Assembly: GCA_965197885.1 (NCBI GenBank)
Contig: OZ240231.1
Location: 192,504 to 256,503 of the forward strand
Reading direction: 5' to 3'
DNA: 64,000 nucleotides
Origin: Thermodesulfobacteriota bacterium
GTDB lineage: Bacteria; Desulfobacterota_D; UBA1144; Nemesobacterales; Nemesobacteraceae
Shown: piece by piece, positions 31,276-55,489 of the stretch
Layout: each line of letters opens with the position of its first letter
Numbering within the stretch: the first letter of the stretch is position 1
Made by a program: the position numbers and the translations under genes
The notes under the pieces: generated by a model
What the model was told of the DNA's origin: nothing
The model's input: the letters and a program-made list of their open reading frames with translations, nothing else
Databases searched by the model: none

Positions 31276-32265
31276 TTAGCCTGGAGAATCACGCAGTATT
31301 TCCTCCCTGATTTCCCTAAGCGTGAATCTGCGTGATTTAAGTTCATTTATTAATTTTATTCTTTCGACCATCTCCTGTGTGTAGAGTTGGTACCCGGCGT
31401 CGGTAACTTCGGCGACTTCAAGCAAACCTTCCTTGGTCCAGTGGCGTATGGCGGAATTTCTTTGGTTGACCAGTTTTGCCAGTTCGCCGATTTTAAGCAG
31501 AGGACCCTTGTTATCACCTGTATCCGTTCTGCCTTCAGCTGCCTTGAGATATATATCAAGTGAACGGTCAACTGCCCGCGCGATAATTTTCATGTAAGCG
31601 TCTTTAGAGCCGCCCAGCTGCGCTTTTTCAAGCGAGTCGATATAAGCCAACCGGTCACGTTTGCGTATTATTGCTGCCGGATAACCCGACATGAGCAGGA
31701 TCATGTTCATTAGGAGTCGTGCCGCGCGGCCGTTACCATCGGTAAACGGGTGGATGGTAACCAGGCGGTAATGAGCTTCCGCAGCCAATTCTACCGGGTG
31801 CAGGTCGATTGCCAGCTTGAGCCATTTCGCTAACCCGTTCATCAGGTCCGGCACTTTGCGCGGATTTGGCGGCACCACCATCGAACCGGAGATTCGCACC
31901 GGCGTCACGCGATAACGACCGGCATTTAGATCATCAATGCCTTTCATAATAAGATAGTGGATATGCAGGATGTCCTCTTCGGTCAGCGAACGCGTCCCGC
32001 GTTTGGCTTGTTCTTTCACCCAGTCCAGGGCACGGACGTGGTTTACGGCTTCCATGTGCTCCAGAAGTGATTTCCCCCCGATGGTGAGACCTTTTTCGAC
32101 CACCAGCGCGGTTTCACGGCGACCTAGCGTATTTCCTTCAATTGCGTTACTCGTGTAGGTCAACTCAACCCGAAACCATCCATCCAGATTGCTTAGGAGT
32201 GCGTCAGGCAGCGGTCCATACTCATCCAGCAACCTTTTTTTTGCGGTCAGGTTTTCGTATTTCAT
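31276..32265 (-). CDS. Fic-family protein (AMPylator-type HPFxxGNGR motif) with C-terminal MerR-like HTH
   Basis: HPFTDGNGRAARLLMNMILLMSGYP Fic motif; C-terminal IGELAKLVNQRNSAIRHWTKEGLL...LREI resembles a MerR-type HTH. Confidence 0.85.
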   Translation of the reverse strand: MKYENLTAKKRLLDEYGPLPDALLSNLDGWFRVELTYTSNAIEGNTLGRRETALVVEKGLTIGGKSLLEHMEAVNHVRALDWVKEQAKRGTRSLTEEDILHIHYLIMKGIDDLNAGRYRVTPVRISGSMVVPPNPRKVPDLMNGLAKWLKLAIDLHPVELAAEAHYRLVTIHPFTDGNGRAARLLMNMILLMSGYPAAIIRKRDRLAYIDSLEKAQLGGSKDAYMKIIARAVDRSLDIYLKAAEGRTDTGDNKGPLLKIGELAKLVNQRNSAIRHWTKEGLLEVAEVTDAGYQLYTQEMVERIKLINELKSRRFTLREIREEILRDSPG

Positions 32266-32276
32266 GAGACGAACTA

Positions 32277-32298
32277 TAAACCATAACGTTATGGTTTA
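32277..32298. promoter_or_regulatory. 22-bp perfect palindrome (TAAACCATAACGTTATGGTTTA), candidate operator 12 nt upstream of the Fic-HTH start codon
   Basis: The reverse complement of taaaccataac is gttatggttta; a perfect dyad was seen directly. Confidence 0.6.
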
Positions 32299-32693
32299 CA
32301 AGTTAGATTGAAATCGAGTAACTTCTGCGCTGTTGACGGGCAGGCTGAGACGGATTGAGGAGCGATATAACAGTCAATTGGGTGAACAGCCCCAGGCGAC
32401 ATACGGTCTCCCACAGTTAGATGGTGACGGTTGGCGCGCTTTTCTCGCGAAATTCAGGCGTGATTTCTTTCCCGGAATAACGAATCGGACCGCTATGATC
32501 TGTTCTTTCGGTATAAACCGGGCCACCAGTCCGGATAGTCTTTGTTTATATCCTCGGTGAAACGTCTCTCCATGTCCCGCTCCCAGTTCACCGAACTCAG
32601 CACCTCGTACGTGCGCGGACTGCTGCTAAAAATGGGTTCCTTTAAAAAATTTCCGTTATCCTGAGAAACTCCTGCTAGGATCTTTCCGTATTT

Positions 32694-34109
32694 TTAAAGC
32701 CCCTGCCGTGCTTGGCCGCTAATCCTGTCTTTTCTGTGTTTTCCAACGGAACGCCTTTTGGACGAGATTGCCAAAAACAGGGCGGATACGACCAAGAACA
32801 AGTTGAATACAGTGCTTTCAGGCGCACCCTCCGCTCCCGCCGCGACAATCGCGCACCCTCCACCGCCATCCTCAACCTCTGATTCCAAGTAAATCCCTGA
32901 ACCAAACACATAAACAGGTGCGTCAGGATCTTCCTTGAGAAGCGGGTTAAGTGTAACGGCTTTTGCGTAGGCAAGCTTGGGCGAAGTGCCGCCAGCACCG
33001 CCGCCGGGGGGATCGTCATTCGAATCCGCCGGATCGTCCCAGTTGTAATTGACAAAGCCTCCAACAAACCCTCCGTGTTCGTCCCGCGTCTTCGCCGCCG
33101 CGATGATCCTCTGAATGGTGTCAACTAAAGTCGGGTCTTGGCTTTGTAGCAAGTTTGTCTGCTCAATCTTTCTGTTGGCACCGTTAAATATAACGTTGCC
33201 CCTCCCATCCATTATATAGATGTAGGTGGAACCATCTCTCCAGGGCCCGCCTTCAGTCCTGAAAAGTTCCCGTAATTGTATGACGTCAATCTCGGGTCGG
33301 CTCAAGGCTTTGAGAAAGAAATGAATTGCCTCTTCTACAAACAGCTTCAGCAGTCCCCGATCTTCTTTCTCTTTCACATTTTTAGCCGAATTGGTAGGGT
33401 TTATCGAAAAACCAATACGGCCGAGTTTTATCTTGCCCTGACTAATGCTAATGGGAGTAGGGTCAACTCCATCCTCCAGGTTGAAACCACCGACCAGAAC
33501 AAATCTTTGCCGCCCGGGCGCGGTTGGATTGGTAAGCGGGATGGATGATAGACCGGCGAATGAAAGCGCGTAACTCACCCTGGGGCTTTGATCGTCTTGC
33601 CCATAATACATAACGGAGTCTCCATCCTCCTCGTCTGCGGCCAGAAAATACTCCCCGACGGGGTTTAGCTTGCCATCTACAAGTCTAGACCAGTCTTGGT
33701 CTTCCAGTTCTCTGTTGGGGTGAACATAGACGCCGCCACCGGGGGGAAGGAATAGGAATGAACAACCAATATCTAGGGCTTCATCCGGTGTACAGGTGGC
33801 GGGACCTGTGAGAAGAATGAGGTATGTGTCTTTATGCTTCCAATATCCTTCCTTCCTGAAATCGTTAAAGATTTCGGTTGCTTGTTCAAGAGTGCTGGTA
33901 ATCCCCAAGTGGTATGCCGCGTCTTTCACGAACTTCTCCAACAGCTCCATTCGCTCTATATTGTCAGCTGCCTCTGCCACGTCCTTCGCCATCGTGCCTT
34001 CATGGGCAACGGCTGTGCGAACACTGGAGAATACACCGGCCAGCGCAAGCGCACAGCAGAAAAGAATCAACGACTTTACAGTTTTTATTATAATATCCTC
34101 CTTTGCCAC
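32694..34109 (-). CDS. secreted tandem Cache/PDC-like domain protein with Gly-rich region and Cys-containing C-terminal hydrophobic tag (paralog A)
   Basis: Signal peptide LILFCCALALAGVFSSVRTAVA; two ...Y..L....GGVYVHPNRELEDQDWS / TYIYIMDGRGNVIFNGANR segments typical of Cache-like ligand-binding folds; DDPPGGGAGGTSPKL; C-terminus GCAIVAAGAEGAPESTVFNLFLVVSALFLAISSKRR. Confidence 0.7.
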   Translation of the reverse strand: MAKEDIIIKTVKSLILFCCALALAGVFSSVRTAVAHEGTMAKDVAEAADNIERMELLEKFVKDAAYHLGITSTLEQATEIFNDFRKEGYWKHKDTYLILLTGPATCTPDEALDIGCSFLFLPPGGGVYVHPNRELEDQDWSRLVDGKLNPVGEYFLAADEEDGDSVMYYGQDDQSPRVSYALSFAGLSSIPLTNPTAPGRQRFVLVGGFNLEDGVDPTPISISQGKIKLGRIGFSINPTNSAKNVKEKEDRGLLKLFVEEAIHFFLKALSRPEIDVIQLRELFRTEGGPWRDGSTYIYIMDGRGNVIFNGANRKIEQTNLLQSQDPTLVDTIQRIIAAAKTRDEHGGFVGGFVNYNWDDPADSNDDPPGGGAGGTSPKLAYAKAVTLNPLLKEDPDAPVYVFGSGIYLESEVEDGGGGCAIVAAGAEGAPESTVFNLFLVVSALFLAISSKRRSVGKHRKDRISGQARQGL

Positions 34110-34577
34110 AAGGCAGATCTTTGTCTATCACGCCCTACACCAGCGTGTTCATTAGCATTGCAATCGAGCATTCCGGATTTCCGTAGGCTTGTTTCTAACA
34201 TTTCGAAAAACTCTCTAAAAAAAAGGCTGCCTGCCCATATTAGCACTATCCGGTTGCTTCTAATCTTCAATTTAACTGTACTTCCTAGTCCTATCTGCTG
34301 TCAAGGAGAATAAGTGGCATTTGCGATGTAGCGATTTTGATTTCTGGTTTCCGGTACGCTTTATGAAGTTTTGATTTAGAGGAAAATTTAAGAATCGAGT
34401 TTAATAAAAATTCACGGGTCGTTCGACCGAATGACCCGTGTTTCTATTTAAACCTTAATTTCGCTGAAAAAAAACTGAAGGAATGGTGCTGGAAGTTCGT
34501 GCCCAAGAGCACCAGTACTGGATCAGACAACCATCACGGCAGACCCAATCATAACACTATGGAGGTATTGCTTTATC

Positions 34578-34718
34578 ATGAACAATGATAAGACACTATT
34601 TTCTGCAGGTGTTGACTGGGGGCGAGGGTCCCACCAAGTCTGCGTTATCGATCAGGAAGGTTCCGTCATTGGAGAAGAATCCTTCAAGCACACCGGAAAT
34701 GCCGTATTGCCAAGTTGA
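34578..34718 (+). mobile_element. IS110-family transposase 5' remnant (46-codon N-terminal fragment only)
   Basis: MNNDKTLFSAGVDWGRGSHQVCVIDQEGSVIGEESFKHTGNAVLPS* matches the conserved N-terminus of IS110-family DEDD transposases (GVDWAxxxHxVxxxDxxG...). It stops after 46 codons and no catalytic core follows. Confidence 0.65.
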
Positions 34719-34780
34719 ATCCGGACTTTTCCATACGATAAGTCCTTGCCCGGGAACAGGGTATACCGAGTTGGGTACCC

Positions 34781-36037
34781 CTAGTTCGAACATCTGACTT
34801 TAGCATACTCCGGTCTCCATGAGCTACAATCGTGCACCCCACGGGTTCCATGCTCACAATCAAGCAGTTCATCTTCACCCCCATCGCATACCACCTCGTC
34901 AAGCAAGAAAGTTCTGGGTGCACTAATTCCTGATGAGTGTAGGGTTGGAGACGGGGTGTTTCCCGAGAAGCCTAACTGACTACACACGACCCCTGCCTCT
35001 TCTGACCCCCATCCGCTGTTAGCACATACCGACTCCCATCCTGTACCATCGCCATCGTCGGTTTTGCCATCGAATATTTCAACTCTGCCTTCAAGCTCAT
35101 TAACTCCTGCCGCCAGTCGAATCCGGCCGTCGTAGTTCGCAGCATCAGCAGCACTAACAGGGCCCGTTACCCGGCTTCGTACCTCTTCTTTATTTCCGGT
35201 GGGGGTAGCTTCATCGGTGAAACTCAGTTCAAGCTTGATACTTTTACCGAAATCCGCATCTGCAAGAACATAAGTGGAACTTGTCCCCCCGGAAATCTCA
35301 GTCTCGTTATCATCAGTATTAAGTCGGGTATTAACCCTGACCCACTGATAACTGAAGGTTGACGTCGCCGGAAGACCGTCGTCGTCCTCTATGTCCGAGA
35401 CGTCGGCGGTCAGAGTCTGCCCCACCTCCAGAGTGCCCGTGATTCCCAGCAGACCTTTGGCGGTGGAACTGGCACCTGACTCACAAGCAACTGTGAATAT
35501 CTCTCCATTGTAGCAATTATGCTTATCACGTCCTCCGTGCTCACAATCAAACACTCTTTTTTCCGAACCCGTGCACAGCAGATTGTCTATTACCATGTCG
35601 GGAAAATTCGCTGACACGCCTGAATCATAGGAAACGTCGTGAGTTATCTCTCCTCCCGAACACCCTAGCTGGCGGCATATTACGGCTGCTTCTTCTTTAG
35701 ACACATCATGTGAAAGTAAGCCATCATCACATATCCCCCTCCACGTGCCGTTCCCGTCATTATCCGGCTCATTGAATATCTCCGTCCTGCCCTCTCCTGA
35801 GCAAGCTGCTGTTCCTGTCACAACCGTGCCCGTCGCATCTAGTCTCCTTAATCGAAGGTCGCCGTCGGACTGCGCATTTACCTCCGCAGAACCTCCCAGC
35901 AGCAAAAACAGCAGTGACGCTACCAAGAGGGGTTTGCTCAAGAAATCCAAGGCTTTTATGATCCCCGTCCCGTGCGAGCAAACCACGCTGTTACTGTTAA
36001 AAAGCCTTCCAGGTTTCGTTAAGTATTTTTCCATCAT
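34781..36037 (-). CDS. secreted tandem-SRCR-like domain protein (paralog 2)
   Basis: Same architecture as paralog 1: DGDLRLRRLDATGTVVTG...GRTEIFN...WRGICDDGLLSHDVSKEEAAVICRQLGCSGG...LLCTGSEKRVFDCEHGGRDKHNC; central ITGTLEVGQTLTADVSDIEDDDGLPA domain; second SRCR ...WESVCANSGWGSEEAGVVCSQLG...VVCDGGEDELLDCEHGTRGVHDC. GAAGGAGG SD upstream of the ATG at 36037. Confidence 0.8.
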   Translation of the reverse strand: MMEKYLTKPGRLFNSNSVVCSHGTGIIKALDFLSKPLLVASLLFLLLGGSAEVNAQSDGDLRLRRLDATGTVVTGTAACSGEGRTEIFNEPDNDGNGTWRGICDDGLLSHDVSKEEAAVICRQLGCSGGEITHDVSYDSGVSANFPDMVIDNLLCTGSEKRVFDCEHGGRDKHNCYNGEIFTVACESGASSTAKGLLGITGTLEVGQTLTADVSDIEDDDGLPATSTFSYQWVRVNTRLNTDDNETEISGGTSSTYVLADADFGKSIKLELSFTDEATPTGNKEEVRSRVTGPVSAADAANYDGRIRLAAGVNELEGRVEIFDGKTDDGDGTGWESVCANSGWGSEEAGVVCSQLGFSGNTPSPTLHSSGISAPRTFLLDEVVCDGGEDELLDCEHGTRGVHDCSSWRPEYAKVRCSN

Positions 36038-36576
36038 CCTCAGAACCTCCTTCTGAACTTTTCTGTGTCCTAGGTCTAACCGCTTGGTCTAGATATAACC
36101 ATTCCACCCTATATTGTATATGTAAATTTAGCCCCGTCAATTTTTTCTTGGCGGCTTGATATTCAGGTGTTCTCTGTCGGTCCCCGTTCCACTAAAAATC
36201 TTCACGCATGCCACGTTAGGGCTTAGTTCCAGGCCGCACTCCGGATCTTTGCATGGGGTGTTCATCTCGACACTCCTTTGACACACATCTCCCCGGGAGA
36301 CACTTAAAGATGGCGGACCAACCGAGGCATTCGTTGATCAAATGGACAGTAACTTTAACTCAAATCAATTTTGCGCTGAGTAAAAGCCCTTAGGAAGGTA
36401 GAGGATTATAATCAGTTGAGAACCACGGGAAATAGCGGGGAATTGTGTACACAGCCAGTCACCCTCGTAGCGCGTAATTCCTGAGATGTCTCAACCTTAA
36501 TTCGGGAAGGTCACTTGTCTTCAAGATGTGCTTGCCCCTGACAATTGAGCATTCGGGTCGTGGAATGAGTGATTGC

Positions 36577-36620
36577 TTTTGTACCGAACATTCGGTTATA
36601 TTGTACCGAACATTCGGTTA
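36577..36620. promoter_or_regulatory. two tandem 22-bp direct repeats each containing the dyad ACCGAAcaTTCGGT; candidate operator upstream of Cache-like paralog B
   Basis: ttttgtaccgaacattcggtta (36577-36598) and tattgtaccgaacattcggtta (36599-36620), 49 nt before the ATG at 36669. Confidence 0.65.
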
Positions 36621-36668
36621 CAAGGTGTAACTGGACAAGGGCTTATCGTATATGAAGGAGAATGTGTC

Positions 36669-37991
36669 ATGAAAAATTTAAAGTCATCGTTTTTTTTCCG
36701 GTTTTGCTGTGTGCTTGTGCTGGCAAGCGTTTTTTTCGGTACGCGTCCCGCCGTTGCCCATGAAGGTACGACGGACGCCGCGACGGCGGAGGACGTGGCG
36801 AAGGCGACCGCCGATATGAAGCGGGATGTTCTGAGCGAATTCGTGGAACACGCGGCAGAGCACTTCGAGGGTGCCCAAAGCTTCGAACAGGCGGCCCAGC
36901 TCTTTGATGGGTTTCGGAACGAGAGAAGTTGGAATTATGAAGGTGTATACATCGTCCTTCTTACTGCTCGTGGCGGCGTGTACGTCCACCCCAACAGGGA
37001 GCTTGAGGATCAGGACTGGTCTGCCCTTCCGGATGAGGAGGGAAAAAACGTCGGGAAGCAGTTTCTGGCCGCAGGCGAGGATGGAGACTTCGTTATGTAT
37101 TATGGGCAAGACGATCAAAGCCCCAGAGTGAGTTACGTGCGACCGGTTGTCAATCCGTCTGTTCCGCTTAGCAACCCGAGCGCACCTGACCGGCAGAAAT
37201 TTATTCTGCTCGGCGGCTTCGATCAGGAGCACGGATTTCCGGATCCTCCCTACGATCCCGAGCAGGGTATAAAACTTCACGGTCAAGATTTCCCTGCACT
37301 TCCTGGAGTACAGGCTAAAGATGTGACGGAAGAAGGCGATCCGGAACGGAGAGAAGAGGAGCTGAGACAGTTTGTACGCGATGCGATTCACTTCTTTCTG
37401 ACAGCCTTGGATGGAGGTGAAGTTGACGTCATACAGTTGCGCAGACTCTTCAGGCTGGACGACGGGCCCTGGAGGCATCGCTCCACCTATATATATATCA
37501 TGGATGAAAGGGGCAACGTGATATTTAACGGGGCCAACAGAGGTATTGAGCAGACAAACTTGTGGGATTTTACTCCTCCTGACAGTGACGATACATTTAT
37601 TCAGAGGATCATAGCCGCGGCGGAGATGCCCGGCGGAGGCTTTATCAATTACAACTGGAACGATCCGGAGGATCCGAATGATGATCCTCCCGGTGGCGGT
37701 GCTGGCGGTACTTCGCCCAAGCTTGGTTTTGCCGAAGCCGTTTCACTTGACAGGCACGATCATTTGTCTCCCGTCTACGTGTTTGGTTCAGGGATTTATT
37801 TGGGGTCGCAGGATGATGATATGGAACTGCAGGGTGACGATGATGACGGAGCGTGTGCGATTGCGGGAGCGGGGAATACGCTTGAAAGCACCGCATTCAA
37901 TTTCTTCCTGCTTGTATCCGCCCTGTTTTTGGCAGTTTCGTTTAAAAGACATTTAACTGGAAGACGGAAGGAGCAACGCCAAAATCTGTAG
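36669..37991 (+). CDS. secreted tandem Cache/PDC-like domain protein with Cys-containing C-terminal tag (paralog B)
   Basis: Start at MKNLKSSFFFRFCCVLVLASVFFGTRPAVA with an AAGGAG SD; strongly similar throughout to paralog A (GGVYVHPNRELEDQDWS, MYYGQDDQSPRVSY, DDPPGGGAGGTSPKL). C-terminus GACAIAGAGNTLESTAFNFFLLVSALFLAVSFKRH. Confidence 0.7.
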   Translation: MKNLKSSFFFRFCCVLVLASVFFGTRPAVAHEGTTDAATAEDVAKATADMKRDVLSEFVEHAAEHFEGAQSFEQAAQLFDGFRNERSWNYEGVYIVLLTARGGVYVHPNRELEDQDWSALPDEEGKNVGKQFLAAGEDGDFVMYYGQDDQSPRVSYVRPVVNPSVPLSNPSAPDRQKFILLGGFDQEHGFPDPPYDPEQGIKLHGQDFPALPGVQAKDVTEEGDPERREEELRQFVRDAIHFFLTALDGGEVDVIQLRRLFRLDDGPWRHRSTYIYIMDERGNVIFNGANRGIEQTNLWDFTPPDSDDTFIQRIIAAAEMPGGGFINYNWNDPEDPNDDPPGGGAGGTSPKLGFAEAVSLDRHDHLSPVYVFGSGIYLGSQDDDMELQGDDDDGACAIAGAGNTLESTAFNFFLLVSALFLAVSFKRHLTGRRKEQRQNL

Positions 37992-38572
37992 AGTCGAAGA
38001 GAAGCGGACCCTTGAGAGGAGAGTGCGCCAATAAGGGCCGAGCACGGCGCGGACAGAGAAGTCGTATTCCGTCAGGGAAGAGAAGCGGGCCGGAAGGAAT
38101 CTCGGACTTCATCGACGCTAATGCGCTTTGGGTTACGATTACCGCAAGGCTTTCGGTCACAAGTTCTAACACTTCACAGGATTCCCCAGTCGGGTTTTAC
38201 TTACGTGGCGTGCTCAGAAGTGGCTGTGCGGGTGCTACATAAAGATGGCGGCTTCGGGCAAGAGCGCCAAGGGTGATAACGGTGGCCATCGCCAGGGAGC
38301 TTGTGCGGGTTTCATCCGGGACATAATCCGCCGCGAGATGGGCACAATAAAGGGGTCGACGGCGTAGGGAGAAGAACGCAAACAGAATAATCGTGTCAGG
38401 ACGAGGCGCGAGAGCGGAGAATCTCTGTTCTCAGTCTACGGGCACCTCGTTGACCCGTGCTATTGAGTCAAAGGTCAGTTCTGCGACTTAAGTGGACCCA
38501 AGCGACACCCGATCCGGTACCTTTATCAAAAGCCTGAATCAAGCGAAAAAATTAAAAATCAAGTTTAATTTT

Positions 38573-38690
38573 TTCACGGGTATCGACTGGGGACGAGAAT
38601 CCCACCGGATCTGCCATTGGAGAAAAATCCTTCAAGCACACCGGAAGTGCCGTATTGCTAAGTCAAATCCGGACCTTTCTATACGATAAG
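38573..38690 (+). mobile_element. second, more degraded copy of the IS110-family 5' remnant
   Basis: ...TGIDWGRESHRIC then frame lost; DNA aligns with 34600-34720 except for a roughly 22-nt deletion (gttatcgatcaggaaggttccgt) and a roughly 150-bp deletion upstream. Confidence 0.6.
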
Positions 38691-38729
38691 GTTCTTGCCC
38701 GGGAACAGGGCATACCGAGTTGAGTCCCC

Positions 38730-40448
38730 TTAGCTCCCTCCAGGCGAACATGTGACTTTAGCATAGTCCGGGTTCCATGAGCTGCAATCGTGCTCTCCAC
38801 GGGTTCCATGGTCACAATCAAGCAGTTCATCTTCATCCCCATCGCAGTCCACGGAGTCAAGCAAGAAAGTCCTGGGTGGACTAATGCTTGATAAGCTTAT
38901 GCCTTCTGCAGACGAGGTATTCCCCGATGCGCCTAACTGACGACACACGACCCCCGCCTCTTCCGATCCCCATCCGCTGTTAGCACATACTGACTCCCAT
39001 CCCGTACCATCGCCATCGTCGGTTTTGCCATCGAATATTTCAACTACGCCTCTAAGCTCATTATCTCCCGCCGCCAGTCGAATAGAACCGTCGTACTCCG
39101 CGGCATCAGCAGCACTGACAGTAACGGGGCCCATTACCCGACTTCGTACATCTTCTTCATTTCCGTCGTCATCGGCGAAACTCAGTTCAAGCTTGATACT
39201 TTTACCGAAATCCGCATTCTGAAGAACATAGGTGGAATTTACCGCATCGGAAATATCGGACTCGTTATCAGGAGTATCAAGCCGGGTATTAACCCTGACC
39301 CACTGGTAACTGAAGGTTGACTCCGCCGGAAGACCGTCTTTATCATCTATGTCCGAGACGTCAGCGGTCAGAGTCTGCCCCACCTCCGAAGTGCCCGTGA
39401 TTTTCAGCAGACCGGAGGCGGTGGAGTTGTCACCTGGAGGATCACAAGAGACTGTGAATATCTCTTTCTTGAAGCAATTATGATTTCCACGGCCTGCATG
39501 CTCACAATCAAGCACACTGTTTTCCGAACCCGTGCATACCAGATTGTCTATTAACATGTCGGGGAAATTCGCTATCACGCCTGAACCATAGAAAACGTCG
39601 TGAGTTATACTTCCTCCCGAACATCCCAGCCGGCGACATATTACGGCTGCCTCTTCTTTAGACACATCGTTTGAAGTTAAGCCATCATCACATATCCCCC
39701 TCCAATTGCCGGTCCCGTCATCGTCCGGATCATTGAATATCTCCGGCCTGCCCGAATCTGAGCAAATCGAGTCGCCTGTCAAAACCGTGCCGTCCGCATC
39801 TAGTTCCGTTAACCTGAGGTCGCCGTCTTTGTTGGAGTTTATAGGAGATGAAGGACCGGTTATACGAACTACGGCATTTTCGTGATGGGTAGTCCAACCG
39901 GCGTTCGTTCCGTCCCACGCATAAATACCCTCGACAAACCTATCCCGATCGCGGAGATTAAAAGTCTGATGCTCGGTATAACCAGAATCAGTATCATTCT
40001 GAGTCCCCGTATGCACATCATATCTGTCTAAGGGTTCCCCCTCCGGCGGAAAATCCGGCTTTATCCAAATTTTAAAACTGCCGGCGTTCACTCCACCCGA
40101 ACTAATAATTGCAATTTCGTAAGTATTATTTCCAAACTCAAAGAACCTGTCATCATTTGACGAGAAGGCCCCATTGGGAGCAGCACTAGTGCCATAGTGA
40201 GTTGTGGTCTCGGCTCCCTGACCTTGATCCACCTGAAATTCCAGCCGAGCAAGTTCCGTGTCCCCCGCCCATAAATCGCCGACGCTCAATAATGAGAATG
40301 CTAAGAAAACGGCCAGAATACCCGCGCTGCGGAGCACGGAAGGAACTTGCCGCCTCCGGGAAGCGGTTTCCCCGTTCCTCTTATTCCGAGATACTTGAAG
40401 ATTTATACCCTGAAAGCAATTTACATTCCCTGCACTTGGTTTACTCAT
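38730..40448 (-). CDS. secreted tandem-SRCR-like domain protein with additional about 170-aa N-terminal domain (paralog 3)
   Basis: C-terminal 400 aa collinear with paralog 2 (DGDLRLTELDADGTVLTG...WRGICDDGLTSNDVSKEEAAVICRRLGCSGG...; ITGTSEVGQTLTADVSDIDDKDGLPA; WESVCANSGWGSEEAGVVCRQLG). AGGAGGA SD upstream of the ATG at 40448. Confidence 0.8.
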   Translation of the reverse strand: MSKPSAGNVNCFQGINLQVSRNKRNGETASRRRQVPSVLRSAGILAVFLAFSLLSVGDLWAGDTELARLEFQVDQGQGAETTTHYGTSAAPNGAFSSNDDRFFEFGNNTYEIAIISSGGVNAGSFKIWIKPDFPPEGEPLDRYDVHTGTQNDTDSGYTEHQTFNLRDRDRFVEGIYAWDGTNAGWTTHHENAVVRITGPSSPINSNKDGDLRLTELDADGTVLTGDSICSDSGRPEIFNDPDDDGTGNWRGICDDGLTSNDVSKEEAAVICRRLGCSGGSITHDVFYGSGVIANFPDMLIDNLVCTGSENSVLDCEHAGRGNHNCFKKEIFTVSCDPPGDNSTASGLLKITGTSEVGQTLTADVSDIDDKDGLPAESTFSYQWVRVNTRLDTPDNESDISDAVNSTYVLQNADFGKSIKLELSFADDDGNEEDVRSRVMGPVTVSAADAAEYDGSIRLAAGDNELRGVVEIFDGKTDDGDGTGWESVCANSGWGSEEAGVVCRQLGASGNTSSAEGISLSSISPPRTFLLDSVDCDGDEDELLDCDHGTRGEHDCSSWNPDYAKVTCSPGGS

Positions 40449-40905
40449 CGTATTGTCCTCCTGCGTGCAATAAGGTATTAACAGTCGGCCCTAGAAAGAA
40501 CCGTTCGGTATAGTACCTCGATATCCCTACATCGTCAAGCAGGTGTCCCGGTGCCGAAGACTGCACTCCGCGCGGGCCCACCGAACCCGCACCTGGCGCT
40601 ATGGTATGCGCGACGGGAAAAACCTAGCCGTCGTTGCTTCCGCTTAAGACATCGGGGAAGTGTCCCGACGCCCGGGCCCTGCTGCCATAGGATTCCCCGG
40701 TCGGGGTTTACTTGCGTGGCGGTGATGACTGGAAGAAAACGCCGGTCGGCATTCCCGGGGAATGTGGTACCCACAGCTTTTCGAACTTTCATAAAGGCGA
40801 AGACGAAGACGTGACTTGAAGTTGGGGGAACTTGTGCTCTCACTATGCGATGTGGAGAGAGTGCGGGGTTGAATCCATGTTGCTTCCCGCTATATTGATC
40901 AGATA

Positions 40906-41319
40906 ATGAACCACTGGCTTGTTAAATCCGAACCGTTTAAATATTCATGGGAGGAATTTCTCCGCGACGGCTGGACATACTGGGACGGAGTGAGAAACTA
41001 CCAGGCGAGAAACAACCTCAAGGGCATGAAAGAGGGCGACCTGGTTCTTTTCTATCACAGCAACAAGGGTCTTGAAGTAGTAGGCATATCCGAGGTTATA
41101 AGGGAATATTACCAGGATCCTACGACGGAAGACGAAAGGTGGGTCGTGGTGGACCTGAAACCTGTGGAAACACTGGAGAATCCGGTATCTCTTAAGCGGA
41201 TCAAGGGCGACGAAAGACTCAAGGACATCGCGCTTGTGAGGCAAAGCAGACTGTCGGTCATGCGGATTGAAAAGAAGCATTTCGACACAATCGTCGACCT
41301 TGGAAGGGAAAACGCCTGA
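40906..41319 (+). CDS. EVE (PUA-like) domain protein
   Basis: MNHWLVKSEPFKYSWEEFLRDGWTYWDGVRNYQARNNLKGMKEGDLVLFYHS is the EVE-domain N-terminal signature. Confidence 0.85.
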   Translation: MNHWLVKSEPFKYSWEEFLRDGWTYWDGVRNYQARNNLKGMKEGDLVLFYHSNKGLEVVGISEVIREYYQDPTTEDERWVVVDLKPVETLENPVSLKRIKGDERLKDIALVRQSRLSVMRIEKKHFDTIVDLGRENA

Positions 41320-41420
41320 CTTCCACAAGGATGCGTAGAACCCGTCTGCTTCCTCATACAGTCGCGGAGGAAATTCATTTCTGTGAAACGCCGAAATGAG
41401 GACTCAACCGGCCGGCAAGT

Positions 41421-42841
41421 TTAATTGTTAATAGCACGCCATCTGTCCGGAAGTATAGCACGCCTTTTGTCCGGTTTTGCAGTAGAGCGATTGTCTTGAT
41501 TTATCTTCTCCATAAAGGAGGAGATAGCCATGGACCAGACAAGGTTTCTACAGAGAGTCAGGATGAACCAGTTCGAGCGAGTATACCAGAGATGGAAGGA
41601 GAAGAAGCTGACACAAACAGAGGCGGCCGGGCAGCTCGGGATCACGGAGAGGACATTTCGTCGTTACACAGTCCGATACAGGGACGAAGGTATGCAAGGG
41701 CTTTTAGACCGCCGTCTGGGAGCAGTTTCGCACAATCGGGCATCACGGCAGGAGACCTCGGAGGTGGTAGCGCTCTACAAGGGGGTTTACCCGGACCGTA
41801 ACGTGGCTCACTTCTACGAAGCGTACACCGAGCACCACGGAGGCCGTCGCTGCTACAACTGGGTTAAGAGGTGTCTTTACTCGGCAGGGGTGGCGAGAAG
41901 GCCCCGGGGCGGGGGAGTGCACCGTGAGCGCAGGGAGCGCAAGGAGCAGTCTGGGATGATGATACACCAGGACGCAAGCACTCACAGGTGGGTTCCCCAG
42001 GAGGTGTGGGATCTGGTGGTTACGATGGATGATGCCACAGGGGAGATATACAGCGCTTTTTTCGTTTGGGAGGAAGGGACATGGAGCAGCATGAGGGGTG
42101 TAAGGGATGTGTTGGAGAGAGAGGGTATATTCACAAGTTTTTACAGTGACAGGGGACCTCACTACTGGAGTACTCCCAAGATGGGAGGCCGCGTGGATAA
42201 AGACAATCCCACGCAGTTCGGAAGAGCGATGGCGGAACTGGGGGTGGTGATGATACCGGGATACTCCCCTGAGGCTCGGGGGCGCAGCGAGAGGATGTTC
42301 GGTACTTTGCAGGGGAGGCTGCCCGCGGAGCTGTGTGAGCGTGGTATAGTGGAGATGGAAGAGGCGAACAGGTTTCTCGCGGAGAGTTTCATTGAGGATT
42401 TCAACAGGCGTTTCATGGTGGCTCCCGCAGAGGAGGGAGAAGCGTTTGTGCCGCTGTTAGATGCCAAGCTCGACGACATACTGTGTTTGAAGTACCCCAG
42501 GGTAGTGGGCAATGACAACTGCGTTAGGTACAAGGGTATGAGTCTGCAGATCCCGGCGGTTGAGGATCGTCACCACTTCGTGAGGGCCAGGGTAATGGTG
42601 CACGAGCATGGGGACGGGAGCATGTCCGTATACCATGGGAAGCGTAAATTGGGTAAATATGACAAGGAAGGCAGATTGAAAAACAAAGGAGGAGTAAGCA
42701 GGCCGAAGGTTAACGTGGGCAAGCACCGCAGTTTCACATCAGCCTCTTCGGGCTACGCCCTGCGAGGCTGAAGTGAAGAAAGCAAAAGCGGACAACCCGC
42801 GTGCTATAAAACCGGTCAGTTCGTTTGCTATTAACATTTAA
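41421..42841 (+). mobile_element. apparently complete IS element, ISNCY (IS1202-like) family candidate, about 1.42 kb with 16-bp imperfect terminal inverted repeats
   Basis: Left end TTAATTGTTAATAGCA (41421-41436) and right end TGCTATTAACATTTAA (42826-42841) form a 15/16 inverted repeat. One long transposase ORF lies in between. Subterminal direct repeats atagcacgccNtNtgtccgg x2 at 41431-41470. GC higher than the flanks. Confidence 0.7.
41530..42771 (+). CDS. DDE transposase (rve/integrase-core type with N-terminal HTH), ISNCY/IS1202-like
   Basis: N-terminal HTH (LTQTEAAGQLGITERTFRRY); integrase-core-like block IHQDASTHRW...FYSDRGPHYWS...E; family assignment from memory of IS1202-group transposases, moderate. 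Confidence 0.7.
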   Translation: MDQTRFLQRVRMNQFERVYQRWKEKKLTQTEAAGQLGITERTFRRYTVRYRDEGMQGLLDRRLGAVSHNRASRQETSEVVALYKGVYPDRNVAHFYEAYTEHHGGRRCYNWVKRCLYSAGVARRPRGGGVHRERRERKEQSGMMIHQDASTHRWVPQEVWDLVVTMDDATGEIYSAFFVWEEGTWSSMRGVRDVLEREGIFTSFYSDRGPHYWSTPKMGGRVDKDNPTQFGRAMAELGVVMIPGYSPEARGRSERMFGTLQGRLPAELCERGIVEMEEANRFLAESFIEDFNRRFMVAPAEEGEAFVPLLDAKLDDILCLKYPRVVGNDNCVRYKGMSLQIPAVEDRHHFVRARVMVHEHGDGSMSVYHGKRKLGKYDKEGRLKNKGGVSRPKVNVGKHRSFTSASSGYALRG

Positions 42842-42906: not shown

Positions 42907-44400
42907 ATGAACACTCAACTTATCATCAACTCGCTTTTTAACGAAACGAGAATAGCTGTTTTGGAGAAAAGCAGACTGAGCGAGCTTTTCATCGAAAGAA
43001 AATCCAGTTCTTCCATGGTGGGGAACATCTACAAGGGGAAAGTCGAAAAGATAATCCCCGGAATGCAGGCGGCGTTTGTAGGTATAGGAGACGGCAGGTC
43101 TGGGTTTCTTTCCGCAGAGGATGTGTATGAGGAATCGCTGAGCGAGCTTTTTCTTGAAGAGGAAGAGACCACAAAGGCCTCAAGAAAAAACCACCAGCCG
43201 ATACAGGACGTGCTGCGTCAAGGTCAGGAAGTGATGGTTCAGGTCACAAAGGAACCCACCGGAAACAAGGGGCCAAAGCTGACCTCTCACGTCGGGATAC
43301 CGGGCAAGTATCTTGTTCTGCTTCCTGGGTCAGATTCTATAAACGTGTCCCGGAAAATAAAGGATAGAAAACGCAGGAAGAAATTCTCCGAAATCATGCA
43401 GGATAAGCCCGACGACATGGGTTTTATAGTAAGAACGGCGTGTGTGGGTGCGGAGGAGAAAGATATCAAGACCGAAATGAGGGTGCTTGTAAGAAAGTGG
43501 AGAAGAATAAAGAAAAAATATGAAGATTCGAAAACCCCGGGCGTCATACACGAAGAAGCCGATACCTGTATCAGGGTTGTCAGGGACTTGATGGGAAACG
43601 GTCTTAAGAAAATTGTTGTAGATTCCCCCAAAGCATACGACCAGATCAGCAAGTATTTTTCCGACAAGATTGAGAAGGATGACTTCAAAGTCGATATGTA
43701 CGATAAAAACGAACCCATATTCGACAGGTACGGAATTGAGAACCAGATCGAGAAAATGTACAGAAAAAAGGTGTGGATGAAGTCCGGAGGTTCCCTGATC
43801 ATAGATGAGGCCGAGGGGCTTACCGTTATAGACGTGAACTCGGGGAAACTCGTCGGAGAGGAATTTCACAAAGAAACAATAATGAAAACAAATGAAGAAG
43901 CCGCCGTCGAAGCCGCGAGGCAGATAAAGCTTCGCAACCTAGTCGGAATCATAGTCATCGATTTCATAGACATGCAGGCCATTAAATCCAGAAGGAGGAT
44001 AGAGTCGCTTTTTGCCGCTGAGATGAAAAAGGACAAGGCGAGGACTACGATCCAGAAAATATCATCTTTCAGCGTACTCCAGCTCACTAGGCGCAGAGTC
44101 AGGGAAAGCATACTTTCCGACCTGACCGAAACCTGCGATATTTGCGAGGGAAGCGGAAGAGTGAAATCGATATATACCACCTGTTATGAAATACTGAGGG
44201 ACGTTGATCAATGGACAAAGGAAAGTGGCGAAGGACCGCTTGTCGTGCACGCCAACAAGAAGGTGATAGAGAAGCTCAGGGAGATAGAAGGAAGATCCAT
44301 AAGAAAAATTCAGAGAGAGATGGGGATCAAAATAAAGTTCAAATCGACCGATGATCTTCTCGAAAAATTCACCATTTCCAGGGAAAAAAGTTCCGGTTAG
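42907..44400 (+). CDS. rng: ribonuclease G/E family endoribonuclease
   Basis: S1 domain GNIYKGKVEKIIPGMQAAFVGIGDGRSGFL; DNase I-like/RNase E catalytic core through ...IIDEAEGLTVIDVNSGK...VIDFIDM. Confidence 0.88.
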   Translation: MNTQLIINSLFNETRIAVLEKSRLSELFIERKSSSSMVGNIYKGKVEKIIPGMQAAFVGIGDGRSGFLSAEDVYEESLSELFLEEEETTKASRKNHQPIQDVLRQGQEVMVQVTKEPTGNKGPKLTSHVGIPGKYLVLLPGSDSINVSRKIKDRKRRKKFSEIMQDKPDDMGFIVRTACVGAEEKDIKTEMRVLVRKWRRIKKKYEDSKTPGVIHEEADTCIRVVRDLMGNGLKKIVVDSPKAYDQISKYFSDKIEKDDFKVDMYDKNEPIFDRYGIENQIEKMYRKKVWMKSGGSLIIDEAEGLTVIDVNSGKLVGEEFHKETIMKTNEEAAVEAARQIKLRNLVGIIVIDFIDMQAIKSRRRIESLFAAEMKKDKARTTIQKISSFSVLQLTRRRVRESILSDLTETCDICEGSGRVKSIYTTCYEILRDVDQWTKESGEGPLVVHANKKVIEKLREIEGRSIRKIQREMGIKIKFKSTDDLLEKFTISREKSSG

Positions 44401-55487: not shown

Positions 55488-55489
55488 CG

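What the first reader, a model, noticed from the sequence alone, without database searches (positions are those of the whole stretch)
37840..37991. Shared Cys-containing C-terminal tag on both Cache-like proteins resembles an unassigned sorting signal
Both paralogs (also 32694-32850 on the minus strand) end with a Gly-rich spacer (DDPPGGGAGGTSPKL), then G-C-A-I-[AV]-A-G-A, a short polar stretch (..EST[AV]FN), a roughly 17-residue hydrophobic helix (FLLVSALFLAVS / FLVVSALFLAIS) and a basic tail (KRH / SKRR). This arrangement of signature motif, TM helix and Arg/Lys cluster is that of exosortase, archaeosortase, rhombosortase and MYXO-CTERM-type sorting signals. MYXO-CTERM likewise has an invariant Cys before the helix. 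The motif GCAIxAGA...ESTxFNxFL does not match any tag I can name, so it may define a new sorting-signal class with a cognate processing enzyme elsewhere in the genome.
Basis: partly seen in the sequence, partly recalled or inferred. Interest (0 to 1): 0.65.

Follow-up and report, generated by a model that had tools for sequence, protein, structure and literature searches.

The report
Dadabacterial Cys-type C-terminal sorting tag
The shared tail of the two Cache-like proteins is a modular, cysteine-containing C-terminal sorting tag found on many unrelated surface proteins of Candidatus Dadabacteria. It is a diverged, so far uncatalogued relative of the myxobacterial MYXO-CTERM signal, and the same genome encodes a matching myxosortase-like membrane protease.

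Summary
Both paralogs end in an acidic/Gly run, then G-x-C-A-I, about 11 polar residues, a TM helix and a basic tail.

A tail-only profile finds 135 protein clusters (E<=1e-3) among 1.84 billion. Thirty-one are not Cache proteins: they include LRR+fn3, Calx-beta, Spondin_N and fn3/He_PIG proteins.

The Cys is present in 214 of 215 tags. About a quarter of the Cache homologs lack the tag, so it is modular.

No curated sorting-signal model reaches its cutoff. MYXO-CTERM comes closest (18.6 bits against 20), and the window tails get no hit.

There is no processing enzyme in the window. Dadabacteria, including this genome, encode a conserved 201-aa Rce1/CPBP protease whose best matches are all myxosortase models, though below cutoff. 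Its nearest outside relatives are genuine myxosortase-family proteins. Tagged genes lie within 10 kb of this protease gene in 4 of 8 lineages sampled, once directly adjacent.

Verdict: a new lineage-specific variant of the Cys-type (MYXO-CTERM-like) sorting system. Cleavage, lipidation and surface display are inferred, not shown.

The parts
36669..37991 (+). Paralog A gene: signal peptide, two sCache_2-like modules, acidic linker, C-terminal tag. The mechanical ORF starts at TTG 36573; the database start is ATG 36669.
   Evidence: ORF list. 100% identical to P0001, 440 aa. Pfam sCache_2 1.8e-16 and dCache_2 1.5e-15. AF2 model pLDDT 80.7 with two alpha/beta modules. Foldseek best matches are sCache chemoreceptor sensor domains 2QHK/4EXO/5G4Y/4K08, target TM about 0.7.
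36669..36758 (+). Predicted Sec signal peptide of A: MKNLKSSFFFRFCCVLVLASVFFGTRPAVA|HEG.
   Evidence: Read from the sequence: n-region, h-region and an A-x-A site. No signal-peptide predictor was run. The same ..AVA|HEG junction is in B and in the fused tandem units.
37842..37991 (+). Tag of A: DDGA-C-AIAGAGNTLEST, helix, basic tail, stop.
   Evidence: Tail HMM 64.0 bits. Coordinates. The AF2 model has a disordered segment (pLDDT<50) containing the Cys, followed by one long helix.
37854..37856 (+). Near-invariant Cys codon of A (Cys428 of the ORF, Cys396 of P0001), followed by A-I-A, a CaaX-like tetrapeptide.
   Evidence: Cys present in 214 of 215 tail-HMM domains. Following positions: +1 Ala 77%, +2 Ile/Val/Leu 95%, +3 Ala/Ser 85%.
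37893..37943 (+). Hydrophobic TM core of A (AFNFFLLVSALFLAVSF), with conserved polar Asn and Ser.
   Evidence: Hydropathy scan. AF2 helix 407-429 of P0001. Column conservation: Asn 57% at +15, Ser 53% at +21.
37944..37988 (+). Basic cytoplasmic tail of A (KRHLTGRRKEQRQNL).
   Evidence: Sequence. The Cys-to-basic-cluster spacing is 30 residues in 121 of 191 tails.
32694..34109 (-). Paralog B gene, same architecture, 52% identical to A.
   Evidence: ORF list. Pfam dCache_2 2.5e-11. BLASTP A vs B 52.2% over 473 columns.
32694..32867 (-). Tag of B: GGGG-C-AIVAAGAEGAPEST, helix (VFNLFLVVSALFLAI, 32766-32810), basic tail KRRSVGKHRKDRISGQARQGL, stop. The Cys codon is 32853-32855.
   Evidence: Tail HMM 59.1 bits. 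Coordinates.

Best explanation
The tail is a lineage-specific, Cys-type tripartite C-terminal protein-sorting signal of Candidatus Dadabacteria. It works like MYXO-CTERM.

Proposed pathway:
1. The protein is exported through Sec by its N-terminal signal peptide.
2. It is first held in the inner membrane by the C-terminal helix, with the basic cluster in the cytoplasm. The folded domain hangs in the periplasm on an acidic, flexible stalk.
3. A dedicated Rce1/CPBP-type glutamic intramembrane protease recognises the helix and the C-[AS]-[IVL]-[AS] motif. This is the 201-aa myxosortase-like enzyme conserved in Dadabacteria; in this genome it is P0248, outside the window.
4. The protease removes the helix just after the Cys. 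The Cys is probably lipidated and becomes the new membrane anchor for display on the cell surface.

The clients are ligand-binding Cache proteins and eukaryote-like adhesion proteins (LRR, fn3, Calx-beta, Spondin_N).

Shown here: the anatomy of the tag, its modular spread over unrelated proteins, the near-invariant Cys, the absence of a curated model, the existence and catalytic integrity of the enzyme, its presence on the same contig, and partial gene linkage.

Inferred: that this enzyme is the one that acts on the tag, the cleavage site, lipidation, and the final location.
For: 1. Modularity. A 41-position tail-only profile finds 135 representative clusters at E<=1e-3, 25 of them at <=1e-10, in 1.84 billion proteins. 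Thirty-one of the 129 new representatives do not match a Cache-body HMM. The full-length ones carry LRR+fn3, Calx-beta, Spondin_N, fn3+He_PIG, or no Pfam domain.

2. Gain and loss. Eighty of 107 Cache homologs match a Cys-motif regex in their tails. Most of the other 27 end cleanly about 10-20 residues after the last conserved body motif; a few are truncated fragments.

3. Tight signature. Acidic run, G-G-C-A-I-[AS]-G, N-T-x-Q, L-[LF]-N-L-[FL]-L..S-V-L-F, then [RK]-R-R. Cys in 214 of 215 domains, a single Cys in 179 of 204, and a Cys-to-basic spacing of exactly 30 in 121 of 191.

4. Same genome. The tagged Calx-beta protein P0216 and the CPBP protease P0248 are both on a contig of 1,919,453 bp, the same length as the contig of P0001, which is the window protein. 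Tag and CPBP lists share further contig lengths: 2441076, 2275767, 2386527, 825371, 624246, 450856, 10864.

5. Nearest known signals. MYXO-CTERM (7 of 30 tails) and JDVT-CTERM (5 of 30) are the most frequent weak NCBIfam hits. The best MYXO-CTERM scores are 18.6, 18.4 and 17.5 bits against a cutoff of 20, aligned over almost the whole model.

6. The enzyme.
- PF02517 at 67 bits.
- E115-E116-x3-R120, F141-x3-H145 and H188-x3-N192 are invariant in 36 sequences.
- AF2 pLDDT 91.4.
- The only meaningful PDB match is MmRce1, 4CAD (prob 0.99, TM 0.60).
- In all seven Dadabacteria-clade orthologs tested, the top NCBIfam hits are myxosortase models (MrtP, Mrt_core, MrtS, MrtC, MrtX).
- Two of the three nearest relatives outside the clade that were tested (P0328; P0332, named as Myxococcales) pass the Mrt_core cutoff at 106.6 and 104.2 bits. 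The third, P0334, scores 84.2.

7. Linkage. Tagged genes lie within 10 kb of the CPBP gene in 4 of 8 sampled lineages:
- L002/L006/L007: Cache, one to three LRR proteins, and a Calx-beta gene that runs off the locus end and belongs to the tagged P0216 cluster.
- L011: a protein ending SGGCSLVAN..RRIRRRK.
- L014: an S8 subtilase ending GGGGGGCAVSE..RRKIRSR, starting 323 bp after the CPBP gene.
- L016/L017: a protein ending SDSGCSVAT..RRIRKR.

8. Published precedent. MrtX cleaves MYXO-CTERM in a Cys-dependent way and is needed for surface anchoring, including in E. coli co-expression (PMC11980579). Haft linked four Cys-type signals to CPBP enzymes in silico (10.1101/2023.06.07.544157).

9. The structure model places the Cys in a disordered stalk 11 residues before a single long helix.
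Against: - No experiment. Cleavage, lipidation and surface exposure are all by analogy.
- The CPBP gene sits in a conserved housekeeping context (gltBD, birA, nadE or rng). Both the CPBP and Cys tags turned up wherever I sampled Dadabacteria, so co-occurrence has no negative genomes and little discriminating power.
- In 4 of 8 lineages no tagged gene lies within 10 kb of the CPBP gene. Only 1 of 7 tag-centred loci has the CPBP within reach.
- The divergent tags in L011, L014 and L016 were recognised by architecture and motif, not by the tail HMM (7.6-8.1 bits for L011 and L014; L016 gave no hit).
- Enzyme scores are below the curated myxosortase cutoffs (Mrt_core 63-75 against 100).
- I could not enumerate other PF02517 paralogs, rhombosortases, exosortases or a type II secretion system, because only about 20-kb pieces of the genomes were accessible.
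- The window proteins have unusually long basic tails (15-21 aa). A permanent membrane anchor would also explain that.
- 'Same genome' rests on equal contig lengths, not on direct retrieval of the 1.92-Mb contig.
Confidence: 0.62

Rival explanations
1. A plain, unprocessed C-terminal membrane anchor. The helix stays in the inner membrane and tethers periplasmic binding or adhesion domains. The conserved Cys/Asn/Ser motif would serve oligomerisation, a disulfide, or contact with a partner protein, and the module would have spread by domain shuffling.
For: The architecture (signal peptide, periplasmic domain, one TM helix, basic tail) is topologically sufficient for a type I anchor. The window proteins have long basic tails of 15-21 aa. 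Stop-free tandem fusions, in which the tag helix and the next signal peptide form a hairpin, also work without any cleavage. There is no direct evidence of processing.
Against: A generic anchor needs no near-invariant Cys (214 of 215), no fixed 30-residue Cys-to-Arg spacing, and no conserved C-A-I-[AS]-G..N-T-x-Q segment outside the membrane across unrelated carriers. This pattern is the hallmark of enzyme-recognised sorting signals (10.1101/2023.06.07.544157). The closest known signals and the linked protease both belong to the myxosortase system. The clients are adhesion-type domains (LRR, fn3, Calx-beta, Spondin_N), which make little sense trapped in the periplasm of a diderm cell.
Confidence: 0.2
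2. A genuine sorting signal, but processed by a different enzyme encoded elsewhere, such as a rhombosortase-like rhomboid acting at the Gly-Gly run, an exosortase/archaeosortase-type enzyme, or an unknown family. The CPBP protease would then be an unrelated housekeeping enzyme.
For: The motif begins with G-G(-G) as GlyGly-CTERM does. The CPBP gene's core neighbourhood is housekeeping, and half the lineages show no linkage. The rest of the genome could not be inspected. An IPTL-CTERM protein also sits next to the CPBP gene in L016, so adjacency is not exclusive to Cys tags.
Against: GlyGly-CTERM and PEP-CTERM models are not among the 14 families that any of 30 tails touches at E<=10, whereas MYXO-CTERM and JDVT-CTERM lead the list. 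The conserved residue is Cys, as in all four signals assigned to CPBP enzymes. The CPBP's best hits are specifically myxosortase models. An S8 protease with a Cys tag is directly adjacent to the CPBP gene in a distant lineage. The window contains no rhomboid or exosortase: its only multi-TM ORFs are an Fe-S membrane protein, a CcsA-like protein and RseP.
Confidence: 0.12
3. One reading: the tail is shared only because the two genes are paralogs, and has no wider significance.
For: Within the 64-kb window only these two ORFs carry it.
Against: The tag is found on at least 15 non-homologous full-length proteins, and on a Calx-beta protein of the same contig. It is absent from about a quarter of the Cache homologs.
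Confidence: 0.01

Closest known systems
MYXO-CTERM (TIGR03901) with myxosortases MrtX/MrtC/MrtP of Myxococcota
   Same: Extreme C-terminal tripartite design: Cys-containing Gly-rich motif, about 10 residues, TM helix, Arg cluster. Many-to-one relation with unrelated surface proteins. It is the closest curated model (up to 18.6 bits). The candidate enzyme is a CPBP/Rce1-type protease whose best hits are Mrt models, and two of its nearest outside relatives pass the Mrt_core cutoff.
   Different: - No tail reaches the 20-bit cutoff, and the window-type tails do not hit at all.
- Usually a single Cys, not the frequent GCGC.
- C-A-I-[AS]-G and N-T-x-Q motifs.
- Conserved polar Asn and Ser in the helix.
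- Acidic rather than neutral lead-in.
- Host is Candidatus Dadabacteria, whereas Haft's curation found true MYXO-CTERM only in Myxococcota.
- The enzyme is compact (201 aa), scores 63-75 bits on Mrt_core (cutoff 100), and has a clade-specific C-x-F-S-G-G-G-x-C-x-Q-N insert.
JDVT-CTERM (NF033191) with MrtJ (NF033192)
   Same: A single invariant Cys, similar length, conserved residues inside the helix, a CPBP-type cognate enzyme, and occasional direct adjacency of client and enzyme (as in L014).
   Different: No Asp-Pro motif nine residues after the Cys. Several clients per genome rather than one. The client is usually not adjacent to the enzyme. Model scores are far below cutoff: the two listed JDVT-CTERM scores are 9.2 and 7.2 bits against 27, and MrtJ scores 36-43 against 75.
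GlyGly-CTERM with rhombosortase
   Same: A Gly-Gly run immediately before the processing region, a TM helix, a basic cluster, and clients that are secreted or surface proteins of a diderm bacterium.
   Different: The conserved residue here is Cys. No GlyGly-CTERM model hit at E<=10. No rhomboid was found in the accessible DNA.
Eukaryotic CaaX box with Rce1 (structure 4CAD of the archaeal homolog)
   Same: The four residues C-A-I-[AS] fit Cys-aliphatic-aliphatic-X. The candidate enzyme has the Rce1 fold and the same Glu/His/Asn catalytic set. Rce1 cuts directly after a lipidated Cys.
   Different: The box is internal, followed by a TM helix, and lies on the periplasmic side. No prenyltransferase is implied. 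The resemblance is my reading of the profile, not a tested property.

Membership tests
MYXO-CTERM sorting domain (TIGR03901) | Tripartite C-terminal architecture: Cys-containing signature, TM helix, Arg-rich cluster at the extreme C-terminus | tested here: met
   Tails. Cys-anchored profile. AF2 model with a disordered Cys segment and then one helix.
MYXO-CTERM sorting domain (TIGR03901) | Invariant Cys in the signature motif | tested here: met
   214 of 215 tail-HMM domains have it. The exception is a 44-aa fragment.
MYXO-CTERM sorting domain (TIGR03901) | Score at or above the curated cutoff (20 bits) of the model | tested here: not met
   The best scores are 18.6, 18.4 and 17.5 bits. Only 7 of 30 tails hit at E<=10, and the window tails do not hit at all.
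MYXO-CTERM sorting domain (TIGR03901) | Present on many unrelated proteins of one genome (6-43 in Myxococcales) | tested here: inconclusive
   At least 3 on the window's contig (A, B, Calx-beta P0216). At least 4 on one 624-kb contig, covering at least three architectures: LRR 1030 aa, Cache, P0200, Calx-beta P0341. A whole-genome count was not possible.
MYXO-CTERM sorting domain (TIGR03901) | Taxonomic range Myxococcota, as curated by Haft | tested here: not met
   The named carriers and loci are Candidatus Dadabacteria or 'Thermodesulfobacteriota bacterium' MAGs.
MYXO-CTERM sorting domain (TIGR03901) | Cys-dependent cleavage by myxosortase and T2SS-dependent surface localisation | not testable with these tools
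   Experimental properties (PMC11980579). No T2SS genes were sought outside the accessible pieces.
JDVT-CTERM (NF033191) | Nearly invariant Asp-Pro nine residues after the single Cys; model cutoff 27 bits | tested here: not met
   Positions +8 to +10 are Thr / mixed Thr-Ala-Ser-Pro / Gln, with no DP. The two listed scores are 9.2 and 7.2 bits, and 5 of 30 tails hit at E>=0.0027.
JDVT-CTERM (NF033191) | Typically one client per genome, adjacent to MrtJ | tested here: not met
   Several clients per contig. Direct adjacency to the CPBP gene was seen in only 1 of 8 lineages, L014.
Synerg-CTERM / CGP-CTERM | Invariant Pro in a Leu-rich helix (Synerg); invariant Gly-Pro right after the Cys (CGP) | tested here: not met
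   The Cys is followed by Ala-Ile, and there is no conserved Pro in the helix. Single weak hits only, at 10.4 and 12.7 bits.
GlyGly-CTERM / PEP-CTERM | Match to the GlyGly-CTERM or PEP-CTERM models; a PEP motif | tested here: not met
   Neither model is among the 14 families touched by 30 tails at E<=10. No P-E-P is visible in any listed tail.
CPBP / Rce1-like glutamic intramembrane protease (PF02517), for the candidate enzyme | Pfam gathering score; EExxxR, FxxxH and HxxxN motifs; Rce1 fold | tested here: met
   67 bits against a cutoff of 22.4. All motif residues are invariant in 36 sequences. AF2 pLDDT 91.4, and 4CAD is the top PDB match at prob 0.99 and TM 0.60.
Myxosortase family (NF040914 Mrt_core and the MrtX/C/P/S/J/Z equivalogs), for the candidate enzyme | Score at or above the curated cutoff (Mrt_core 100 bits) | tested here: not met
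   63-75 bits in eight clade members, with every equivalog far below its cutoff. Mrt models are nonetheless the top hits in all of them, and outgroups P0328 and P0332 pass at 106.6 and 104.2.
Myxosortase family, for the candidate enzyme | Co-occurrence with a Cys-type C-terminal signal, with no genome having one without the other | tested here: inconclusive
   Shared contigs in at least 8 cases, and neighbourhood linkage in 4 of 8 lineages. No negative genomes could be examined.
Cache domain (sCache_2 PF17200 / dCache_2 PF08269), for the carrier proteins | Pfam gathering score and Cache fold | tested here: met
   60.9 and 57.5 bits for A, 33.9 and 43.7 for B. Foldseek matches to sCache sensor domains at prob 1.00.

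The most novel reading that the evidence does not exclude
Candidatus Dadabacteria possess their own, uncatalogued Cys-type sorting system, a 'Dada-CTERM' tag plus a distinct myxosortase clade.
- It would extend myxosortase-type sorting beyond Myxococcota, Pseudomonadota, Synergistota and Thermococcales.
- These bacteria, probably host-associated, would use it to lipid-anchor eukaryote-like adhesins and solute-binding Cache proteins on their surface.
- Its recognition motif is an internal CaaX-like box, C-A-I-[AS], suggesting the Rce1 rule 'cut after a lipidated Cys' is conserved from eukaryotic CaaX processing to bacterial surface sorting.
- Natural two-unit polyproteins with an internal tag followed by a second signal peptide would be cut into two surface proteins.
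Probability: 0.5. Interest if true: 0.65.

Novelty: new variant of a known kind. Interest (0 to 1): 0.55.

Why it matters
C-terminal sorting signals decide which proteins a bacterium shows to the outside world. Each newly recognised signal-enzyme pair allows a whole surface proteome to be read from sequence.

- This tag marks the surface-displayed set of an uncultured phylum, covering solute-binding Cache proteins and LRR, fn3, Calx-beta and Spondin adhesins. Current annotation calls these only 'cache domain-containing' or 'hypothetical'.
- It supplies a fifth bacterial or archaeal lineage for the recently validated myxosortase mechanism.
- Its motif is unusually informative: CaaX-like, with conserved polar residues in the helix. 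That could help define how Rce1-type proteases pick their substrates.
- A curated HMM for the tag and one for the enzyme clade would be immediately usable for annotation.

Tried and rejected
- **Tail profile against 5.8 billion sequences:** nothing at E<=10. The profile is too short for that database size, so the search was uninformative. The unindexed representative search worked.
- **Genome-collection scans:** back-translating the diverse tail alignment failed. A tighter alignment returned only 5 loci. The metagenome scan returned only 2. A large tag-centred neighbourhood statistic was therefore not obtainable.
- **Exact-sequence look-ups of P0001 and P0216:** nothing found, so the 1.92-Mb contig itself could not be read.
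- **Processing enzyme inside the window:** rejected. The only multi-TM ORFs are an Fe-S membrane protein (8335-9774), a CcsA-like protein (22484-23287) and RseP (53901-55538). An S41 CtpA-like protease (57774-58913) is generic housekeeping.
- **Sequence search of the enzyme profile against PDB:** only noise. The Rce1 relationship appears only at fold level.
- **DDPPGGGAGG as a spacer:** rejected. It belongs to the folded Cache body and is present in untagged homologs.
- **Tag similarity as paralog inheritance only:** rejected.
Full report
**1. What is in the window**

ORF A (36573..37991 +; the database start is ATG 36669, giving the 440-aa protein P0001) and ORF B (32694..34109 -) are 52% identical paralogs. 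Both have an N-terminal hydrophobic leader ending A-V-A|H-E-G. Both hit Pfam sCache_2/dCache_2.

An AlphaFold2 model of A (pLDDT 80.7) shows two alpha/beta modules, at residues ~51-182 and ~225-377. Their best solved relatives are single-Cache chemoreceptor sensor domains (2QHK/4EXO, 5G4Y, 4K08; prob 1.00, target TM about 0.7). There is no cytoplasmic output domain.

After the body comes a disordered segment (pLDDT<50) with an acidic run and the Cys, then one long helix and a basic tail.
- The quoted ranges are out of frame.
- B's Cys codon (32853-32855) falls just outside the quoted range.
- A reads GACAIAGAG.
- 'DDPPGGGAGGTSPKL' is not a spacer. It is part of the folded Cache body, about 75 residues upstream, and is conserved in homologs without any tag.

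**2. Is it more than a shared paralog tail?**

Within the window the motif occurs only in these two ORFs. Outside the window the picture is different.

- *Cache homologs.* Of 107 homologs, all from Dadabacteria where a name is given, 80 match a Cys-motif regex in the tail. Most of the others stop cleanly soon after the last body motif. The tail is therefore gained and lost independently of the body.
- *Tail-only profile.* A 41-position profile searched against 1.84 billion representative proteins gave 135 clusters at E<=1e-3 and 25 at <=1e-10.
- *Non-Cache carriers.* Against a Cache-body HMM, 98 of the 129 new representatives are Cache proteins and 31 are not. The full-length non-Cache carriers have LRR+fn3 (P0185, P0209, P0230, P0232, P0213, P0234), Calx-beta (P0216, P0227), Spondin_N (P0207), fn3+He_PIG (P0203), fn3 (P0199), or no known domain (P0145/P0201).
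- *Same genome.* P0216 lies on a contig of 1,919,453 bp, the same length as the contig carrying P0001. So the window's own genome has at least a third, unrelated tagged protein.

**3. Anatomy of the tag**

From 199 unique tails aligned on the Cys:
- Positions -5 to -3 are mostly Asp; -2 and -1 are Gly.
- Position 0 is Cys.
- +1 is Ala (77%), +2 is Ile/Val/Leu (95%), +3 is Ala/Ser (85%), +4 is Gly.
- N-T-x-Q lies around +7 to +10.
- The helix begins near +13, with L-[LF]-N-L-[FL]-L, and has a conserved Ser at +21.
- [RK]-R-R lies at +30 to +32.

The Cys-to-basic spacing is exactly 30 in 121 of 191 tails. A single Cys is present in 179 of 204. The Cys is present in 214 of 215 HMM domains.

Immediately upstream, homologs carry length-variable acidic or Pro/Thr/Glu repeats such as (TPEME)n. 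This is a stalk-like spacer.

Conserved polar residues inside the helix and a conserved motif outside it are what one expects when a membrane-embedded enzyme reads the segment. Haft argued this for JDVT-CTERM (10.1101/2023.06.07.544157). I also note that C-A-I-[AS] fits the CaaX pattern. That is my reading of the profile, not a tested property.

**4. Comparison with known signals**

At E<=10, none of the curated NCBIfam sorting-signal models hits the window tails. Across 30 diverse tails the most frequent weak hits are MYXO-CTERM (7 of 30, best E 0.0018) and JDVT-CTERM (5 of 30, best E 0.0027). GlyGly-CTERM and PEP-CTERM are absent from the list.

Individual MYXO-CTERM scores reach 18.6, 18.4 and 17.5 bits against a cutoff of 20, aligned over nearly the whole model. 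The diagnostic features of the other three Cys-type signals are all absent:
- JDVT-CTERM: a DP motif nine residues after the Cys.
- Synerg-CTERM: an invariant Pro in the helix.
- CGP-CTERM: Gly-Pro directly after the Cys.

Haft's curation found genuine MYXO-CTERM only in Myxococcota, and his preprint does not mention Dadabacteria. A full-text search found no paper linking Dadabacteria to such a signal.

The tag is therefore outside every curated family, and nearest to MYXO-CTERM.

**5. The candidate enzyme**

The window has no intramembrane protease other than RseP.

In locus L002, from a Dadabacteria MAG, a 201-aa ORF lies 3.7 kb upstream of a tagged Cache gene. It carries PEEFFFRGY, FAVAHL and FHFAAN. 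Its properties are:
- It is PF02517 Rce1-like at 67 bits.
- Its top NCBIfam hits are MrtP (79 bits), Mrt_core (73; cutoff 100), MrtS, MrtC and MrtX. All are myxosortase models, and all are below cutoff.
- Seven further members of the clade, down to 40% identity, give the same ranking.
- Two of the nearest relatives outside the clade (P0328; P0332, named as Myxococcales) pass the Mrt_core cutoff at 106.6 and 104.2 bits.
- In an alignment of 36 sequences, E115, E116, R120, F141, H145, H188 and N192 are invariant. The clade has its own C-x-F-S-G-G-G-x-C-x-Q-N insert.
- The AlphaFold2 model is confident (pLDDT 91.4). Its only meaningful PDB match is the Rce1 homolog 4CAD (prob 0.99, TM 0.60).
- Ortholog P0248 (90% identical) is on a contig of 1,919,453 bp, which I take to be the window's genome.

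**6. Linkage between tag and enzyme**

*Contig-length matches* place tagged proteins and the CPBP on the same contigs in at least eight cases.

*CPBP-centred loci* from eight lineages gave the following.

| Lineage / loci | CPBP identity to the L002 ORF | Tagged genes within 10 kb |
|---|---|---|
| L002/L006/L007 | 90-100% | Cache, one to three LRR proteins, and a Calx-beta gene of the tagged P0216 cluster (its end lies beyond the locus) |
| L011 | 43% | 439-aa protein ending DDDSGGCSLVAN...RRIRRRK |
| L014 | 44% | S8 subtilase starting 323 bp after the CPBP gene, ending GGGGGGCAVSE...RRKIRSR |
| L016/L017 | 40% | 432-aa protein ending SDSGCSVAT...RRIRKR (MYXO-CTERM 18.4 bits) |
| L008, L010, L013, L018 | 52-61% | none; housekeeping neighbours only |

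*Tag-centred loci* contain the CPBP gene in 1 of 7 cases. A 20-kb slice is about 1% of a 2-Mb genome, so this is an enrichment. However, it is modest, the lineages are related, and tagged genes cluster in islands.

Both the tag and the CPBP turned up wherever I sampled the phylum. Co-occurrence therefore cannot discriminate between candidate enzymes.

**7. Mechanism proposed**

This follows the experimentally supported MYXO-CTERM pathway. There, MrtX is required for Cys-dependent C-terminal cleavage and surface anchoring, cleavage is reproduced in E. coli, and lipidation and a T2SS step are proposed (PMC11980579; 10.1101/2023.06.07.544157). The proposed steps are:
1. Sec export.
2. Transient anchoring in the inner membrane by the C-terminal helix, with the Arg/Lys cluster inside the cell.
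3. Recognition of the helix and the Cys motif by the Dadabacteria CPBP protease.
4. Cleavage just after a (probably lipidated) Cys.
5. Transfer to the cell surface.

Shown here are the anatomy, the modular distribution, the Cys conservation, the enzyme's identity, fold and intact active site, and the same-contig and partial neighbourhood linkage. Inferred are the pairing itself, the cleavage site, lipidation and the destination.

**8. Rivals**

- *Unprocessed anchor.* This remains possible, at about 0.2. It would explain the long basic tails and the tandem fusions. It would not explain the near-invariant Cys and the extramembrane motif on unrelated proteins.
- *A different processing enzyme.* This cannot be excluded without whole genomes, and I put it at about 0.12. 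Nothing points to one.
- *The paralog-only null.* Refuted.

**9. Novelty and verdict**

This is a new, lineage-specific variant of a known kind of system: Cys-type C-terminal sorting signals read by myxosortase-like CPBP proteases. It is not captured by the NCBIfam or Pfam copies searched here. It is not named in the source annotations, which say 'cache domain-containing protein' and 'CPBP family intramembrane metalloprotease'. No paper in the searched library describes it.

It is a sound and useful finding of moderate surprise. The concept is established; the lineage, the motif, the client set and the polyprotein forms are new.

Noticed in passing
window 31276-42771: The two tagged genes lie in what looks like a lineage-specific island between hisA (30450-31172, -) and rng (42907-44400, +). 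The island holds Fic-MerR (31276-32265), Cache B, SRCR (34781-36037), Cache A, SRCR (38730-40448), a 137-aa ORF (40906-41319) and an HTH/transposase-like ORF (41530-42771). In loci L008 and L010 rng and hisA are close neighbours (no gene called between them in L008, one 489-aa gene in L010), and the CPBP-birA pair sits on the other side of rng.
   Followed up: partly
window 10015-11325, 34781-36037, 38730-40448 (all -): Three secreted proteins with paired scavenger-receptor cysteine-rich (SRCR) domains (Pfam E about 1e-29). This is an animal-type domain that is unusual in bacteria. None carries the Cys tag.
   Followed up: partly
window 15492-20891 (-) and 421-3669 (+): Giant surface-type proteins: 1799 aa with cadherin-like, Big_9, fn3 and PKD domains, and 1082 aa with Big_9 and cadherin-like domains. 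Neither has the tag, so not every eukaryote-like surface protein of this genome uses it.
   Followed up: no
L005 79-2634; proteins P0108, P0109, P0110, P0111, P0112, P0134: Stop-free tandem fusions of two Cache units. An internal tag (helix plus basic cluster) is followed directly by the next unit's signal peptide ending A-x-A|HE. In at least L005 and P0134 the second unit ends in its own tag. The fusion recurs in several clusters that are less than 50% identical, so it is unlikely to be a sequencing error. It may be a polyprotein cut into two surface proteins, or a hairpin-anchored two-headed protein.
   Followed up: partly
L016 8845-9417 (and L017 8845-9417): A 190-aa protein with a bona fide IPTL-CTERM domain (TIGR04174, 23.8-26 bits, cutoff 20.5) ends about 580 bp upstream of the myxosortase-like CPBP gene. 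To my knowledge IPTL-CTERM has no assigned processing enzyme.
   Followed up: no
alignment A3, P0248 residues ~149-160: The Dadabacteria CPBP clade has a conserved C-x-F-S-G-G-G-x-C-x-Q-N insert, with two conserved Cys, between the FxxxH and HxxxN catalytic motifs. The insert is absent from the three relatives outside the clade in the alignment (P0328, P0332, P0334). Its function is unknown.
   Followed up: no
L014 10959-13361: An 800-aa S8 subtilase with a P-domain and He_PIG carries a divergent Cys tag and starts 323 bp downstream of the CPBP gene. This is a JDVT-like adjacent client-enzyme pair in a deep Dadabacteria-related lineage (GCA_964348445.1).
   Followed up: partly
L011 708-2027 and L016 2463-3761: The Cys-tagged proteins near the CPBP gene in two deep lineages contain 'acidic double-disulfide repeats' (NF033662, 39.9 and 24 bits, just under or well under the 41-bit cutoff). 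They appear to be orthologs kept near the enzyme gene.
   Followed up: no
window 31276-32265 (-): A Fic/DOC domain fused to a MerR-type HTH (Pfam 1.1e-23 and 1.2e-15) lies directly beside tagged paralog B. A second Fic-like candidate may lie at 48226-49392; I did not scan it.
   Followed up: no
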